From a virus: a stretch of DNA of 64,000 nucleotides. Below the pieces are notes generated by a model. That model was given only the letters and a program-made list of their open reading frames with translations, had not been told where the DNA came from and ran no database searches. Positions 6,661 through 54,396 of this stretch are shown piece by piece. The translations under genes were made by a program, and so were the position numbers. Each line of letters starts with the position of its first letter. Position 1 is the stretch's first letter. The stretch is taken from IMG/VR virus record IMGVR_UViG_3300045253_000023, positions 32,001 through 96,000 of that record; one strand, 5' to 3'.

Positions 6661-6837
6661 ATGGCAAATTTGAAGGAAAGAATTGAAAATCTGTTGAGAG
6701 AGAAGGTCGCCAATCGCGTCCGCTTTGAAGGCAAGTCTTTGATCAAGAAAGACATGAATGCCTACACCAAATTGGATTCTACTGGCATTTCAAACTCAAC
6801 TGGCATTGCCACAGAAGGCAAGAAAGACAAGAAGTAG
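6661..6837 (+). CDS. Small prohead core protein (gp67/68 position), 58 aa, not in ORF track
   Basis: MANLKERIENLLREKVANRV...KDKK*; GGGAG SD; lies between portal and protease. Confidence 0.55.
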   Translation: MANLKERIENLLREKVANRVRFEGKSLIKKDMNAYTKLDSTGISNSTGIATEGKKDKK

Positions 6838-6951
6838 CCATTGGTTTGGAGAAATATGCTTGGCAAACCACAGCCAAAATTCTCCAACCACTAAGTAATT
6901 GATAGGAAATGGAATTTCTTCAGGGTTGAAAAGGACTTCAGGGATAATACA

Positions 6952-7620
6952 ATGAGACTGCTTGTCGAAGACATCACAGAGACCAAGCTGGTCCATGAAA
7001 TTAGTGAGGCCATCTCAGAGAATGGTGGCACTCCTATGAAGCAATATTGGCTGACAGGAATTTTCCTGCAAGCGGATATGAGGAATGGCAACAACCGCAT
7101 CTATCCAAAAGCAATTTTGGATGAAGCAGTTGATGTGTATCGTCAGAAGTACATCGCGCTTGGGCGCGGATATGGCGAACTTGGACACCCTGATCCAAAT
7201 GATCCTGGTATCCACTTGAACAACGTTGCAATCTTGACGCAAGACATCAAAGAAGATGGAAACAATTTCATTGGCAAGGCCAAGGTCATTGATACTCCAG
7301 CTGGTCGCATTGTGAAAGCCTTCATTGATGAGGGTGTAACATTGGGCGTTTCTTCGCGTGGTCGTGGCGATGTCAAGAATGGTATTGTCCAGAAGGGATT
7401 CCGACTGGTCACCGCTGTGGACGTGGTTGCTGATCCTTCTGCTCCTGACGCATTTGCATCTGCATTGGTTGAAGGCAAGGATTGGGTTGTTGAGAATGGC
7501 ATCATGCTGGATGAGGAAGTTTCAAGTCTTCGTCTGGAATTGCTGGCTACAAACCGCAAGAATTTGGTTGCCAAGAAGATGGAATTGCTTCAAAAGTTCC
7601 TTGGAAAAATCTCAACTTAA
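6952..7620 (+). CDS. 21: Prohead maturation protease (gp21)
   Basis: NGNNRIYP, GELGHP (catalytic His), GVSSRG (catalytic Ser), DVVADPSAPDA. Confidence 0.97.
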   Translation: MRLLVEDITETKLVHEISEAISENGGTPMKQYWLTGIFLQADMRNGNNRIYPKAILDEAVDVYRQKYIALGRGYGELGHPDPNDPGIHLNNVAILTQDIKEDGNNFIGKAKVIDTPAGRIVKAFIDEGVTLGVSSRGRGDVKNGIVQKGFRLVTAVDVVADPSAPDAFASALVEGKDWVVENGIMLDEEVSSLRLELLATNRKNLVAKKMELLQKFLGKIST

Positions 7621-45590: not shown

Positions 45591-46610
45591 ATGAAAACCA
45601 GGCAGCCATCAACAGCACCAAAGACCAAGAAGTTGGTCAACAATGTGATCTTCGTCATTGATTCATCGTCCTCCATGGACCGTCACGCTCGTGCCGTCAA
45701 TCAAGTGATCAATGATCTCATCAAACCGCTTTCTGCAACAGGCTATGCCAATCAGCAGACGCGAGTATCCCTCTACACATTCAATGATCTGGTAACCAAG
45801 CACAAGTTCTTGGTTGATCCAGTCTATCTCCAGAATTTCTCCCTCATTCCTCAAGGTTACACTGCCTTGATCGATGCCACATACACTGCGATCGCAGAAC
45901 ACCAGATTCTGGAACGTTCTGACTATGAAGACAATACCTTCTTGCTCTATGTGATCACAGATGGTGAAGAGAATCGTTCGCGTCACAATGCTGCACAACT
46001 GCGCCAGTTGTTTGCTGGATTGAATGATTCATGGACACTGGCAACAATGGTTCCAAATCAGACTGCTGTGCATCACGCTAAGAACTTCGGTTTCCCTGCT
46101 GGCAACATTGAAGTTTGGGACATCTCTTCTGATCATGGTTTTGAGGAAGTCGGTCGCACTGTTTCGCGCTCGTATTCTGACTACACCAATCTGCGTTCAC
46201 AGGGAATTCGTTCCTCCTCCAATTTGTTTCATGTGAATGCCAACAACATTTCAACACAGGCTGCGAAAGCCAATCTGCAAGAAGACTACACAGCCAAGTT
46301 GTATCCTGTGAACTTCACAGGTCAGATTCGCGAAGTGGTTGAAAGTGTCACTGGACGCCCATACATCCTTGGCGATGCGTTCTATGAACTCATGAAAAAG
46401 GAAACAGTGCAGCCGCAGAAAGAGATTGCCATTGTTCACAAGCGCGATGGCAAGAAGTATTTCGGCCGCAATGCACGCATCATGCTGGGTCTCCCGCAGA
46501 CGCCTGTCAAGGTGATCCCTGGTGACTTCGGTGATTGGCGCCTGTTTGTTCAGTCAACATCTGTCAATCGCAAGGTCGTTCCTGGAACTGCGCTGCTGAT
46601 TCGATCATAA
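45591..46610 (+). CDS. vWA-domain protein
   Basis: VIDSSSSM MIDAS, TALIDA, ITDGEEN. Confidence 0.85.
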   Translation: MKTRQPSTAPKTKKLVNNVIFVIDSSSSMDRHARAVNQVINDLIKPLSATGYANQQTRVSLYTFNDLVTKHKFLVDPVYLQNFSLIPQGYTALIDATYTAIAEHQILERSDYEDNTFLLYVITDGEENRSRHNAAQLRQLFAGLNDSWTLATMVPNQTAVHHAKNFGFPAGNIEVWDISSDHGFEEVGRTVSRSYSDYTNLRSQGIRSSSNLFHVNANNISTQAAKANLQEDYTAKLYPVNFTGQIREVVESVTGRPYILGDAFYELMKKETVQPQKEIAIVHKRDGKKYFGRNARIMLGLPQTPVKVIPGDFGDWRLFVQSTSVNRKVVPGTALLIRS

Positions 46611-49601: not shown

Positions 49602-49684
49602 GCGCCAATAGTCGAGGGTGCCTTCTAAGCATTCATCCGTAACTGGAACTGAAAATGCGGGTTCGAATCCTGCTTGGTGCTCCA
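49602..49684 (+). tRNA. Atypical D-armless tRNA-Arg(TCT)
   Basis: GCGCCAA/TTGGTGC-T-CCA; GGGTGC-CTTCTAA-GCATTC; canonical T arm. Confidence 0.7.
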
Positions 49685-50704: not shown

Positions 50705-50785
50705 GCCGTAGTAACCCGCGTGTCTACGAAACACGACTCAGGTAACTGGAGGAAGATGCAGGTTCGAATCCTGTCTGCGGCTCCA
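50705..50785 (+). tRNA. Atypical D-armless tRNA-Arg(ACG)
   Basis: GCCGTAG/CTGCGGC-T-CCA; CGTGT-CTACGAA-ACACG; canonical T arm. Confidence 0.7.
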
Positions 50786-50879: not shown

Positions 50880-50995
50880 AGGGTAGTTTCTGCATCCATA
50901 AAATCTTGTTGGTTCGACTCCAACATCTCCCGCCACTATGGGAGATGCGCCGCTTGGGCGGCACATTTGAGGTGGTGACACCTCATACTATCCTG
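50880..50995 (+). ncRNA. Y-RNA-like element A containing a permuted tRNA
   Basis: AGGGTAG/CTATCCT stem, TTCTGCA motif; order T arm, acceptor hairpin, D arm, anticodon-like arm. Confidence 0.65.
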
Positions 50996-51353: not shown

Positions 51354-51428
51354 CGCGGAATAGAGAAGTGGCATCTCGCTTGGCTCATAACCAAGAAATC
51401 GTGGGTTCGAGTCCCTCTTCCGCTACCA
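51354..51428 (+). tRNA. tRNA-fMet(CAT)
   Basis: CGCGGAA start with C1 mismatch; loop CTCATAA. Confidence 0.88.
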
Positions 51429-51444
51429 TTCACAAAGAGGCAAA

Positions 51445-51948
51445 ATGTCCACATTGGGTTCGGCAAACAAAACAGAACCAGTGACATTGAAGGAATTCAT
51501 CCTCACCGAATCCTTTGAACCAGTGTCCATTCCATATGGCTTTGACTTCAAAATGAGAAACGGCAGATGGGATCATCTGGGTGGGTTTGATTACACTTTC
51601 TTCACTCTTGATGGTCTGTACTACATGGTGACATTGAAGAAGCCAAGTGGAATTGTTTCCTTTGGTACTTCAGATGAAAACACCACAGACCCAGGCTTGT
51701 ATGATCAAACACCATATCAAGCCAAAGATGCGCTACATGTTTTCAATAGCGTGATCTATGTTGCACTCCAAGGCGCCAAGAATCTCGGTTACACAAGACT
51801 CAGATTTGACGCAGCGAGCCGCGCCTTGGGTCGAGTATATGACGCAATGGTTCGCAACAAATTCTTGATCGACAAACTTGCTGGATATGGTTGGAAGTAT
51901 CTTGGCAAAGATGATGACAACAATCATATGTTTGGTCGATCCAAATAG
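51445..51948 (+). CDS. Hypothetical protein (TLKEFILTES motif near N-terminus)
   Basis: GAGG SD; 167 aa. Confidence 0.6.
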   Translation: MSTLGSANKTEPVTLKEFILTESFEPVSIPYGFDFKMRNGRWDHLGGFDYTFFTLDGLYYMVTLKKPSGIVSFGTSDENTTDPGLYDQTPYQAKDALHVFNSVIYVALQGAKNLGYTRLRFDAASRALGRVYDAMVRNKFLIDKLAGYGWKYLGKDDDNNHMFGRSK

Positions 51949-51954
51949 TTCAAT

Positions 51955-52030
51955 GCCCCTGTGACGGAACGGCATACGTGTCAGTCTCAAAAGCTGAATT
52001 TTGTGGGTTCGACTCCCACTTGGGGTACCA
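51955..52030 (+). tRNA. tRNA-Leu(CAA) with short variable loop
   Basis: Leu-type D arm GACGGAACGGCATACGT; loop CTCAAAA. Confidence 0.85.
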
Positions 52031-52039
52031 AGTTTTTTT

Positions 52040-52102
52040 AGAATGCATACAGCCACCAAACCAAAGTCAAACCTGTTAAGTCTGACGACTAAATGCATTC
52101 TG
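52040..52102 (+). ncRNA. Y-RNA-like element B (anticodon-arm cargo, GTT)
   Basis: AGAATGCA/TGCATTCT stem, TACAGCC motif. Confidence 0.65.
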
Positions 52103-52110
52103 TGAGTTTT

Positions 52111-52224
52111 AGGTTGCCTACAGCAAACATTTCTATTGGTTCGACTCCAATACCTGCCGCCAAAACTGGCAAGTTCGCTCAATGGTAGAGCAATGGGCTA
52201 ATACCCCATCTAATGTGCAGCCTG
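52111..52224 (+). ncRNA. Y-RNA-like element C containing a permuted tRNA (AAT anticodon)
   Basis: AGGTTGC/GCAGCCT stem, TACAGCA; T arm precedes acceptor, D and anticodon arms. Confidence 0.75.
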
Positions 52225-52244
52225 TATTTCGTTGTCTATACATC

Positions 52245-52481
52245 ATGAGGATATCTGATATGGTCCGTCATCTTCGTAAGGGTCGATTCGCTCTTCAGCT
52301 GCGCCGTGAAACGGCATTGAGGAATCTCAACAAGAGGATTCCACTGATTGAGCAAGAGATCGACAGATTGACCAAGGTCGGAAAGTTGACAGACATGTCA
52401 ATCCTCTTGAAGCAAGTTGATGGCAAGCACACACGTGCACTCGGTGAGAGACAATCACTGCTTCAACATGGCATCGCATAA
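52245..52481 (+). CDS. Hypothetical protein
   Basis: Packed ORF. Confidence 0.45.
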   Translation: MRISDMVRHLRKGRFALQLRRETALRNLNKRIPLIEQEIDRLTKVGKLTDMSILLKQVDGKHTRALGERQSLLQHGIA

Positions 52482-52696
52482 TGAGTGACTGTCCGTGGGT
52501 CGGAACTTCCAAAGAGAAGGACTGTCCTGTTGCCAAGAATGCTCCAGCCAATTGTCCATATATGAAGTCTTGTTTGTCGTTGCTTCCTCGCTTCGAACAG
52601 CAAGCCTTCCTCAACAAGAACAAACAGTCTGAGAAGTCAATCTCATCTCAGGAACTACTTGACAATCTATTGAAGTCAGGGAAACATTTATCATGA
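52481..52696 (+). CDS. Hypothetical Cys-rich protein
   Basis: CP repeats; overlapping stop/start. Confidence 0.45.
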   Translation: MSDCPWVGTSKEKDCPVAKNAPANCPYMKSCLSLLPRFEQQAFLNKNKQSEKSISSQELLDNLLKSGKHLS

Positions 52697-54080: not shown

Positions 54081-54396
54081 GGGATGGGTACAGCACCAAA
54101 TCTAACAGAAGGCTTCGGCCATGATGTTAAACTCGGAGGCTAATTTGTGGAAGGTCCAGAAGACCTGTCTACGATGCAAGAGAACAAGAGTTGGGTTCTC
54201 CCAAGGCCATATAACAACAATGGTGTTGAAAGAGCACTATGATCTTGTCAGAGTCACAGTGGCGTGAGTGGAAGTCTGTAATCCTTCGGGTCATCAATTC
54301 TTAGTAGTTGATGTTGGATGGAAGCACATAGCACTTGAAAGAACTGAATAGGGTCCGTCACCGAAAAGACGCCTGTAAAGCCAGGAAACCATCCCG
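54081..54396 (+). ncRNA. Y-RNA-like element D (large, ~300-nt structured cargo)
   Basis: GGGATGG/CCATCCC stem, TACAGCA motif, multiple internal hairpins. Confidence 0.6.

What the first reader, a model, noticed from the sequence alone, without database searches (positions are those of the whole stretch)
52111..52224. Element C: complete circularly permuted tRNA with an AAU anticodon
Seen in order: T arm ATTGG-TTCGACT-CCAAT, 3' acceptor ACCTGCC-G-CCA, linker AAACT, 5' acceptor GGCAAGT, D arm GCTC-AATGGTA-GAGC, anticodon arm ATGGG-CTAATAC-CCCAT. The permutation point is in the variable loop, where the handle is grafted. An encoded internal CCA is retained. An AAU (Ile) anticodon is rare in bacteria. 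Standard tRNA scanners would probably miss it.
Basis: seen in the sequence. Interest (0 to 1): 0.78.

Follow-up and report, generated by a model that had tools for sequence, protein, structure and literature searches.

The report
Rotated whole-tRNA mimic on Ro60-type handle
This phage RNA gene contains every part of a tRNA in rotated order, clamped by a conserved "handle" that travels with a Ro60-like ring protein in many phages, so it is most likely a tRNA look-alike partner RNA (a new kind of Y RNA) and not a working isoleucine tRNA.

Summary
At 52111-52224 (+) all the parts lie in the stated order: T arm, 3' acceptor strand, G-CCA, 5-nt linker, 5' acceptor strand, D arm, then an anticodon arm with loop CTAATAC. 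A 7-bp stem plus CTACAGC closes the element.

The rejoined halves are called tRNA-Ile(AAU) by ARAGORN. That test is lenient and is not enough alone.

The stronger evidence is comparative:
- A covariance model built only from foreign "handle RNAs" finds element C as the best hit in the window (54 bits).
- The handle, T and acceptor helices covary across 78 RNAs.
- In 80 loci fetched by protein alone, the handle clusters beside a DUF2828/DUF7788 gene (here 59070-60476). Its predicted fold matches Ro60.

The only close homologue I found (IMG/VR) keeps all helices. It has a different "anticodon" (UCA) and no CCA. The phage already has Ile GAU and UAU tRNAs.

Best reading: a Y-RNA-like tRNA mimic, possibly cut by RNase P in its tRNA-junction-like acceptor loop. 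It does not reach the Rfam YrlA threshold (20.6 bits against 69). I found no published description.

Earlier notes of this scan report the handle family on DNA of at least 140 other genomes, and the same whole-tRNA design in several phages.

The parts
52105..52110 (+). U-rich lead-in AGTTTT before the handle
   Evidence: Read in the sequence. The same lead-in precedes 6 of the 8 handle RNAs in this window.
52111..52117 (+). Handle 5' arm AGGTTGC. It pairs with 52217-52223.
   Evidence: All 7 handle pairs covary across 78 RNAs, with 93.8% of cells paired.
52118..52134 (+). Unpaired handle motif C-TACAGC-AAAC, then the connector to the T arm. Its last T can act as U48.
   Evidence: TACAGC is invariant in alignments A2 and A4. 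The motif was the anchor of the enrichment test.
52135..52151 (+). T arm ATTGG-TTCGACT-CCAAT
   Evidence: The T helix is 98.9% paired, and 3 of its 5 pairs covary.
52152..52158 (+). Acceptor 3' strand ACCTGCC
   Evidence: It pairs 6 of 7 by Watson-Crick with 52168-52174. All 7 acceptor pairs covary in the family.
52159..52162 (+). Discriminator G and internal CCA
   Evidence: N-CCA stands at this exact place in 14 of 52 family members, where about 0.8 would be expected by chance.
52163..52167 (+). Linker AAACT. Together with GCCA it forms the 9-nt acceptor loop and has the grammar of this phage's tRNA-tRNA junctions. Predicted RNase P site between 52167 and 52168.
   Evidence: The phage's own junctions are NCCA, then an A-rich 5-9 nt spacer, then +1 G or C; seven of the nine spacers of 5-12 nt end in T. 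-1 is T in 24 of 31 tRNAs. The cleavage itself is inferred, not shown.
52168..52174 (+). Acceptor 5' strand GGCAAGT
   Evidence: +1 is G in 12 of the 14 CCA-type members.
52177..52191 (+). D arm GCTC-AATGGTA-GAGC
   Evidence: Rfam tRNA model positions 10-42 match 52177-52209 at 24.1 bits.
52193..52209 (+). Anticodon arm ATGGG-CTAATAC-CCCAT, with AAT at 52200-52202
   Evidence: The stem is identical in the L102-type homologue, but the loop differs (CTTCATG).
52210..52216 (+). Connector CTAATGT, in the variable-loop position
52217..52224 (+). Handle 3' arm GCAGCCT and the conserved closing G
59070..60476 (+). Gene of the presumed partner protein: Ro60-like, with DUF2828 + DUF7788 domains and a vWA MIDAS motif DxSGS at D275
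   Evidence: Pfam. PHROG 850 'RNA-binding protein'. AlphaFold2 model with pLDDT 79.5. The top 13 Foldseek PDB hits are all Ro60.
52040..52102 (+). Element B, a tandem handle RNA directly upstream. Its cargo is a hairpin with loop CTGTTAA.
51955..52030 (+). tRNA-Leu(CAA), the upstream neighbour in what is presumably the same tRNA operon

Best explanation
Element C is a small non-coding RNA of the phage 'handle RNA' family. Each member has a 7-bp terminal stem, an unpaired (C)UACAGCAA motif and a closing G.

By analogy with Y RNAs, I infer that this handle docks the phage's Ro60-like ring protein (DUF2828/DUF7788, 59070-60476). The binding itself is not shown. The handle presents a cargo. In element C the cargo is a whole tRNA shape wired in rotated order, with the handle in the variable-arm position. 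All tRNA surfaces therefore stay exposed: acceptor-T minihelix, D/T elbow and anticodon loop.

It most likely acts as a tRNA mimic. It would tether or bait a tRNA-binding factor to the Ro60-like protein, or protect real tRNAs. Candidates for that factor are a processing or decay enzyme, or a host tRNA-targeting defence nuclease. It most likely does not decode codons.

Its acceptor loop (GCCA-AAACU-G) copies this phage's tRNA-tRNA junctions. I therefore infer, at about 40-50%, that RNase P cuts between 52167 and 52168 and that exonucleases trim back to CCA. That would leave a two-piece RNA held together by the acceptor and handle helices, as shown experimentally for Mycobacterium smegmatis YrlA.

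Shown here: the anatomy, the family membership, the covariation, the linkage of the handle to the protein gene, and the Ro60-like predicted fold.

Inferred: the binding, the processing and the biological role.
For: 1. All parts lie at the stated coordinates.

2. Covariance model R1 was built from 10 minimal CCA-type handle RNAs of other contigs. It scores element C as the best hit in the 64-kb window (54.3 bits, E 3e-10) and element A second.

3. Covariation over 78 model-aligned RNAs:
- 88.3% of cells are paired, against 57% when shuffled and 37-48% with slid partners.
- 444 cells change on both sides, against 137 expected.
- All 7 handle pairs and all 7 acceptor pairs covary.

4. In 80 loci fetched only through the protein, I counted 140 handle structures on the gene's strand. 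There were 13 on the other strand and 19-30 with control arms. 57 of 80 loci have at least one, mostly within 1 kb of the gene. Four of five contigs carrying such RNAs encode the protein.

5. The protein model's best PDB matches are all Ro60 (phiLo phage 9kop E 5e-10; Xenopus 1yvp TMq 0.63; Deinococcus 2nvo).

6. Rfam YrlA aligns end to end over 52108-52217, but only at 20.6 bits.

7. The homologue in L102/L120/L142 is 64% identical. It has the same five helices and folds with z = -4.8. Its loop is CTTCATG and it has no CCA. It lies 12.4 kb upstream of its Ro60-like gene on the same strand.

8. N-CCA occurs in 14 of 52 members, with G at +1 and mostly U at -1. This matches the phage's own tRNA junctions.

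9. Precedent from papers:
- YrlA has a tRNA-like domain, and the 7-bp acceptor of M. smegmatis YrlA is cut by RNase P and receives CCA in vivo (PMC4201824).
- The PhageMaP preprint describes Bas63 gp130 as Ro60-like, located beside tRNAs and countering the Ppl defence (PMC11482910). Bas63 is a Felixounavirus by my own recollection. Other Felix O1-type phages carry a homologue of the DUF2828 gene at about 43% identity. I did not check gp130 itself.
Against:
- Binding of the handle to the protein is inferred from co-occurrence only.
- Element C lies 6.9 kb from the gene, not beside it.
- The single-sequence fold is not better than shuffles (z = -1.25). It prefers a 4-bp GCCA/UGGC hairpin to the mismatched acceptor stem.
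- The anticodon arm has a canonical 5-bp stem and a 7-nt loop with U33 and A37. A pure 'upper-half' mimic would not need these, which leaves room for an anticodon-dependent role.
- The covariation alignment was fitted to the model's structure, so it leans towards that structure.
Confidence: 0.72

Rival explanations
1. Working split tRNA. RNase P and 3' trimming open the acceptor loop. The resulting two-piece RNA ends in CCA, has a handle-type long variable arm, is aminoacylated, and either decodes (AUU through AAU) or donates an amino acid.
For: - It is a complete cloverleaf with all tertiary nucleotides, U33 and A37.
- ARAGORN calls the rejoined form tRNA-Ile.
- The acceptor loop has the grammar of real tRNA junctions: NCCA, an A-rich spacer, U at -1 and G at +1.
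- N-CCA is strongly enriched in the family.
- A variable-arm position for the handle is sterically like that of class II tRNAs. This point rests on my own knowledge.
- Two-piece tmRNA and cleaved M. smegmatis YrlA are precedents.
Against: - The homologue has another triplet (UCA), U37 and no CCA.
- Most CCA-type relatives have no anticodon arm.
- The phage already has Ile GAU and UAU tRNAs, and AUU makes up only 40% of Ile codons.
- From my own knowledge: A34 is not used by bacterial Ile tRNAs, and G73 does not fit Ile identity.
- The acceptor stem has an A.C mismatch.
Confidence: 0.1
2. Decayed remnant of two tandem tRNA genes (the 3' half of one followed by the 5' half of the next) with no function of its own.
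For: - The T-acceptor-CCA-spacer-acceptor-D order is exactly what a tRNA dimer junction gives.
- Chen et al. warn that tRNA dimers can mimic YrlA hits.
- The phage has many tandem tRNA pairs.
Against: - No remains of the missing halves flank the element. Instead a covarying 7-bp stem plus TACAGC motif closes it precisely.
- A model built from foreign RNAs finds it at E 3e-10.
- A 64%-identical homologue keeps all helices.
- No tRNA of this phage is a close source; the best is 53 of 75 identical.
- A dimer origin remains plausible. Loss of function does not.
Confidence: 0.04
3. Permuted tRNA gene matured as in Cyanidioschyzon merolae. The ends would be joined into a circle and the linker removed, giving an ordinary linear tRNA.
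For: - The gene order is that of a permuted tRNA.
- The genome encodes a T4 Rnl1-type RNA ligase.
Against: - The ends form a plain 7-bp helix with a long asymmetric internal loop, not a bulge-helix-bulge motif.
- The same handle closes cargos that are not tRNA-like, including a 45-nt hairpin and a 300-nt RNA.
- From my own knowledge, bacteria have no tRNA-splicing endonuclease.
Confidence: 0.02
4. Processing or stability element of the tRNA operon. It would be a structured spacer that recruits RNase P or RNase E, or protects neighbouring tRNAs, and would work in cis without the Ro60-like protein.
For: - It is embedded in a tRNA array, 80 nt after tRNA-Leu.
- The L102-type copy starts 5 nt after a tRNA 3' end.
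- No promoter-like site of its own was found.
Against: - The handle is tightly linked to the protein gene across unrelated phages, including loci where it lies right next to the gene.
- The handle grammar is conserved far beyond what a spacer would need.
Confidence: 0.08

Closest known systems
YrlA Y RNAs with Ro60/Rsr of bacteria and mycobacteriophages (Rfam RF02553; Chen et al. 2014, PMC4201824)
   Same: - The 5' and 3' ends pair into a stem that serves as the protein-docking module.
- The cargo is a tRNA-like domain read in the order T arm, acceptor hairpin, D arm.
- The partner is a Ro60-shaped HEAT-ring plus vWA protein.
- In M. smegmatis the 7-bp acceptor is cut by RNase P and receives CCA.
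- The Rfam model aligns end to end over 52108-52217.
   Different: - It scores 20.6 bits against a gathering score of 69.
- The handle motif is UACAGCAA, not the GNCGAA-type motif.
- The partner is DUF2828/DUF7788. It has no Pfam TROVE hit and no sequence-level PDB hit.
- The rotation point is the variable loop, not the anticodon stem, so a full anticodon arm is kept.
- The CCA is encoded.
Circularly permuted tRNA genes of Cyanidioschyzon merolae and other algae (Soma et al. 2007; recalled from my own knowledge)
   Same: The 3' half (T arm, 3' acceptor strand) lies upstream of the 5' half, with a short linker between them. The rejoined sequence reads as a tRNA.
   Different: In those genes, maturation goes through a bulge-helix-bulge motif, a splicing endonuclease and a circular intermediate, in the nucleus of a eukaryote. 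Here there is no such motif, the ends form the shared handle, and the CCA is encoded.
Two-piece (permuted) tmRNA of alpha-proteobacteria and cyanobacteria
   Same: The gene is permuted, with the T arm and the 3' acceptor strand ending in CCA upstream of the 5' acceptor strand. It is processed into two pieces that stay paired.
   Different: Element C has no tag reading frame, no pseudoknots and no G3.U70. ARAGORN finds no tmRNA, and neither Rfam tmRNA model hits this stretch.
Class I RNAs of Dictyostelium (Aspegren 2004; Kjellin 2021, PMC7919456; search pattern in PMC5054030)
   Same: The handle grammar is the same: a short terminal stem, then CUUACAGCAA next to the 5' arm, a variable interior, the 3' arm and a conserved G. 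The published pattern is GTTGRCCTTACAGCAA ... GTCAACTG.
   Different: These are eukaryotic RNAs of 42-65 nt whose interiors are not tRNA-like. The known binding partner is the RRM protein Rnp1A. I did not test whether dictyostelids have a DUF2828 protein.
Ro60-like gp130 of phage Bas63 (PhageMaP preprint, PMC11482910) and Thermus phage phiLo Ro60 with Yrl1/Yrl2 (PMC12135203)
   Same: Both are phage Ro60-type proteins beside small RNAs or tRNAs. gp130 counters the Ppl defence, and its authors guess that some neighbouring 'tRNAs' are Y RNAs. wV8, a Felixounavirus (the genus to which I recall Bas63 belongs), has four handle RNAs in that very place.
   Different: Neither paper describes the handle RNAs or a whole-tRNA cargo. 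The phiLo Yrl RNAs use a CGAA motif and a canonical TROVE protein.

Membership tests
YrlA (Rfam RF02553) | Reaches Rfam's gathering score of 69 bits | tested here: not met
   20.6 bits, E 0.026 on the 171-nt stretch. The alignment is full length, 1-114.
YrlA (Rfam RF02553) | tRNA-like domain in the order T arm, acceptor-like hairpin, D arm, closed by a stem made of the RNA's two ends | tested here: met
YrlA (Rfam RF02553) | Ro-binding module with the conserved GNCGAA-type motif (Chen 2014) | tested here: not met
   The internal loop carries C-UACAGC-AAAC instead.
YrlA (Rfam RF02553) | Encoded next to a TROVE-domain Ro60/Rsr gene | tested here: inconclusive
   The partner gene lies 6.9 kb downstream and is DUF2828/DUF7788 by Pfam, not TROVE. 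Its predicted fold matches Ro60. Three sister RNAs lie within about 430 nt upstream of the gene; the nearest ends 66 nt before it.
Phage 'handle RNA' family (unpublished; defined in this scan) | 7-bp covarying terminal stem, one nucleotide, T[A/T]CAGC, an A/C-rich linker, a cargo, the 3' arm, then G | tested here: met
   (54.3 bits with a model built from foreign members)
Phage 'handle RNA' family (unpublished; defined in this scan) | Co-occurs with a DUF2828 Ro60-like gene on the same strand | tested here: met
Functional tRNA-Ile | Cloverleaf with acceptor, D, anticodon and T arms plus CCA, recognised by a tRNA finder | tested here: inconclusive
   Only the in-silico rejoined form is called. 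The native order is not. ARAGORN also% of unrelated half-chimeras.
Functional tRNA-Ile | Anticodon conserved in orthologues and needed by the genome's codon usage | tested here: not met
   The homologue has UCA. Ile GAU and UAU tRNAs are already present.
Functional tRNA-Ile | Aminoacylation and use on the ribosome | not testable with these tools
   This needs an experiment.
Permuted tRNA genes (C. merolae type) | Bulge-helix-bulge motif formed by the precursor ends | tested here: not met
   The ends form a 7-bp helix followed by a 17-nt/7-nt asymmetric loop.
Two-piece tmRNA | Tag reading frame, pseudoknots and G3.U70 | tested here: not met
   The pair is C3-G70. ARAGORN and Rfam give no tmRNA call here.

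The most novel reading that the evidence does not exclude
Element C is opened by RNase P at its junction-like acceptor loop. It then becomes a two-piece, CCA-ended, complete tRNA that rides on the Ro60-like ring through a variable-arm handle. In that form it would either be aminoacylated, or serve as a full-length bait for host defence enzymes that attack the anticodon loop or the CCA end of tRNAs. That would make it a protein-tethered decoy tRNA. The anticodon-like loops vary between sister RNAs (UUU, GUU, GUA, ACG, CAU, AAU, UCA ...). On this reading they would be a repertoire of baits.
Probability: 0.15. Interest if true: 0.85.

Novelty: new variant of a known kind. Interest (0 to 1): 0.6.

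Why it matters
Y RNAs with a tRNA-like domain are known, but what that domain is for is still open. Element C is the most tRNA-complete version of the idea. It keeps the anticodon arm and an encoded CCA, it sits in a tRNA operon, and its acceptor loop looks like a real RNase P site.

The handle family is common. The partner protein has homologues in 711 cultured phage records, among them Felix O1-type, KVP40-type, Listeria, Staphylococcus and mycobacteriophages. In the papers I could search it is not described as an RNA family. It shares its handle grammar with the unexplained Class I RNAs of Dictyostelium.

A Ro60-like protein of a Felix O1-type phage has already been tied to counter-defence. 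Simple experiments in laboratory phages could therefore show what tRNA mimicry by Y RNAs does.

Tried and rejected
- BLASTN of 51400-52500 against 50,697 phage records found only tRNA-Leu matches and nothing for element C.
- An exact 19-mer scan of IMG/VR found the homologue in three contigs only. The other hits were a protein-coding stretch and ordinary tRNAs.
It gave mostly ordinary tRNAs and only four further handle RNAs, none with a 7-nt anticodon loop after the D arm.
- MAFFT alignments of whole elements slip by one column in the acceptor and 3' handle. I therefore counted covariation on a model-based alignment instead.
- phmmer of the protein against PDB found nothing. Only the fold comparison shows Ro60.
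- The ARAGORN rejoin test proved too lenient to stand alone.
- My acceptor-hairpin enrichment test gave only moderate contrast: 52 of 79 real, against 13-33 of 79 in the controls.
- The ORFs overlapping the element (52182-52481 +, 51733-52182 -) have no Pfam or PHROG match and overlap tRNA-like RNA. I rejected them as genes. The downstream gene most likely starts at 52260, behind a GAGGA ribosome-binding site.
- RtcB and Rnl2 are absent from the genome.

Full report
**Setting**

The window is part of a complete 161.5-kb virus record with direct terminal repeats. The closest homologues of its Ro60-like gene are in large phages. ARAGORN finds 31 tRNA genes between 43.5 and 58.6 kb.

Element C lies in the intergenic stretch after tRNA-Leu(CAA) (51955-52030) and a short sister element B (52040-52102). 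The next gene most likely starts at 52260. The ORFs that overlap the element have no family match.

**Observation**

The order is:
- a 7-bp stem arm
- C-TACAGC-AAAC and a connector
- the T arm
- the 3' acceptor strand
- G-CCA
- AAACT
- the 5' acceptor strand
- U8 C9 and the D arm
- A26
- a 5-bp anticodon stem with the 7-nt loop CTAATAC
- a 7-nt connector
- the complementary stem arm and a G

The nucleotides that make the tRNA elbow and core are all in place. The acceptor stem has one A.C mismatch.

ARAGORN and Rfam's gathering thresholds miss the element. At relaxed thresholds the Rfam tRNA model matches the D and anticodon arms (24.1 bits). The YrlA model aligns end to end over 52108-52217, but at only 20.6 bits against a threshold of 69.

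**Is it more than chance?**

The rejoined halves are called tRNA-Ile(aat) with seven different variable loops, and 0 of 500 shuffles are called.

I found that test lenient, however. ARAGORN also accepts 28% of chimeras made from unrelated halves of this phage's real tRNAs. The acceptor complementarity is more telling, because only 2.2% of unrelated strand pairs reach 6 of 7 Watson-Crick pairs.

The single-sequence fold recovers the handle and the T, D and anticodon hairpins. It is not better than shuffles (z = -1.25), and it prefers a small GCCA/UGGC hairpin to the mismatched acceptor stem.

**The family**

Eight elements between 50880 and 58826 share the same closing grammar. Pattern scans of IMG/VR and a protein-anchored fetch gave some 50 parsed relatives with the order T arm, acceptor hairpin, D arm.

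Three independent tests support a real RNA family.

1. Linkage. In 80 loci fetched only by similarity to the protein at 59070-60476, I counted 140 handle structures on the gene's strand. There were 13 on the opposite strand and 19-30 with control arms. 57 of 80 loci had at least one, mostly within 1 kb of the gene.

2. Recognition by a foreign model. A covariance model built from ten foreign minimal members scores element C as the best hit of the window (54.3 bits, E 3e-10) and element A second.

3. Covariation. On 78 model-aligned RNAs, 88% of cells pair, against 57% after shuffling and 37-48% with slid partners. Every handle pair and every acceptor pair shows double-sided changes. This alignment leans towards the model's structure.

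**The protein**

The gene carries DUF2828 and DUF7788 and belongs to PHROG 850 'RNA-binding protein'. It has a DxSGS MIDAS motif. It has no sequence-level match in PDB.

An AlphaFold2 model (pLDDT 79.5, pTM 0.75) has Ro60 structures as its 13 best PDB matches. These include Thermus phage phiLo Ro60, Xenopus Ro60 and Deinococcus Rsr.

Homologues occur in 711 cultured phage records. In phage wV8, a Felix O1 relative, four handle RNAs lie in the tRNA array just downstream of the gene.

**What is special about element C**

Most relatives place a hairpin before the T arm and join the handle between the D arm and that hairpin. The hairpin often has an anticodon-like 7-nt loop.

Element C instead keeps the native D-to-anticodon connection and joins the handle at the variable loop. 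I saw this wiring in only a few lineages:
- L102/L120/L142
- L300:1691-1812
- L049:9693-9825
- L066:2097-2210
- window element A and L358, both with a 7-bp stem and a GNRA tetraloop

Only element C and the L102-type copy have a canonical 7-nt loop there. That copy is 64% identical and folds with z = -4.8. It keeps the same D and anticodon stems, but its loop is CTTCATG and its acceptor is closed by GCTTT without CCA. It lies 12.4 kb upstream of its Ro60-like gene on the same strand.

**The CCA**

N-CCA follows the 3' acceptor strand in 14 of 52 parsed members, where 1 in 64 would be expected for each. In those 14, +1 is G in 12 and -1 is U in 9.

The phage's own tRNA-tRNA junctions read NCCA, then an A-rich spacer of 5-9 nt that usually ends in U, then +1 G or C. 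-1 is T in 24 of 31 tRNAs. Element C's GCCA-AAACU-G has the same grammar.

This suggests two things. The element may have originated from a tandem tRNA junction. RNase P may also cut here, as was shown for the 7-bp acceptor of M. smegmatis YrlA, which is cleaved and gains CCA in vivo (PMC4201824). This step is inferred.

**Why it is probably not a working tRNA-Ile**

- The triplet is not conserved in the homologue.
- Most CCA-type relatives have no anticodon arm.
- The phage already has Ile GAU and UAU tRNAs.
- Ile codons are 54% ATC, 40% ATT and 5% ATA.
- No tRNA of this phage is a close relative of the rejoined sequence.
- From my own knowledge, G73 and A34 do not fit bacterial Ile tRNAs.

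**Other rivals**

- A decayed tRNA dimer does not explain the precise, covarying handle or the conserved homologue.
- C. merolae-type maturation lacks its bulge-helix-bulge motif. The same handle also closes cargos that are not tRNA-like.
- The genome does encode an Rnl1-type RNA ligase but no RtcB or Rnl2.

**Literature**

I found no paper that describes this handle or RNA family. The closest are these:
- Chen et al. 2014 on YrlA.
- The phiLo Ro60 study (PMC12135203).
- The PhageMaP preprint. It reports Ro60-like gp130 of Bas63 as a counter to the Ppl defence and guesses at Y RNAs among the adjacent tRNAs (PMC11482910).
- A jumbo-phage survey that mentions ROT/TROVE proteins with a tRNA-like partner in RNA repair (PMC7824862).

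The handle grammar equals the published search pattern of Dictyostelium Class I RNAs, GTTGRCCTTACAGCAA ... GTCAACTG (PMC5054030; PMC7919456). Their function is unknown.

**Earlier notes of this scan**

Earlier notes report the same handle family in at least 140 other genomes, and the same whole-tRNA, variable-arm design in several phages. My tests were run independently and agree with them.

**Verdict**

Element C is best read as a Y-RNA-like tRNA mimic of a Ro60-like phage particle. It may be opened at its acceptor loop. It is unlikely to be a decoding tRNA. It is a new variant of the known Ro60/Y-RNA kind.

Noticed in passing
window 52040-52102 (+): Element B is a tandem handle RNA 8 nt upstream of element C. 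Its only cargo is a 7-bp hairpin (one mismatch) with loop CTGTTAA, an Asn-type (GUU) anticodon loop.
   Followed up: partly
L066:2346-2460, L102:6244-6360 (-), L264:3697-3814: These orthologous handle RNAs have an identical hairpin stem (TCTTT/AAAGA) before the T arm. Their 7-nt loops keep C32, U33, A37 and A38, but the middle triplet changes: ACG, GTA, GCA. Other members display TTT, GTT, TAT, GAA and CAT. This looks like a repertoire of anticodon loops.
   Followed up: partly
window 54081-54395 (+): A handle RNA with a cargo of about 300 nt (arms GGGATGG/CCATCCC). The handle therefore also closes large RNAs that are not tRNA-like.
   Followed up: no
window 58826-59004 (+): A handle RNA ending 66 nt before the Ro60-like gene. 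Its acceptor loop holds an insertion of about 85 nt. Rfam YrlA gives a partial hit of 24.9 bits.
   Followed up: no
L333 (Escherichia phage wV8, NC_012749.1) 6737-6803, 6903-6961, 7299-7367, 7386-7512: Four handle RNAs (arms AGACCNN/NNGGTCT plus TACAGC or TTCAGC) lie between annotated tRNAs, just downstream of the Ro60-like gene 47. One carries a T arm, a closed acceptor and a D arm. wV8 is a cultured Felix O1-type phage and could serve as a model.
   Followed up: partly
G000:C1:111795-112370 (outside the window): A T4 Rnl1-type RNA ligase gene (PF09511, 45.7 bits). RtcB and Rnl2 are absent from the genome.
   Followed up: partly
window 45591-46610 (+): A second vWA-domain protein (PF00092, E 3e-8) lies inside the tRNA region, apart from the Ro60-like gene.
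   Followed up: no
window 62235-62304, 50705-50782, 49602-49681 (+): Rfam's tRNA model passes its threshold at these three places (38.9, 33.1 and 29.7 bits), but ARAGORN does not call them.
   Followed up: no
window 52159-52170 (+): GCCA and UGGC (the linker U plus G1 G2 C3) can form a 4-bp hairpin with loop AAAC. This competes with the acceptor stem and would hide the CCA. The minimum-energy fold prefers it.
   Followed up: no
L358:5604-5720 (-) (metagenome contig): A handle RNA with G-CCA followed by a long hairpin insertion in the acceptor loop. After the D-like arm comes a 7-bp stem with a GCAA tetraloop, the same design as window element A (50880-50995).
   Followed up: no
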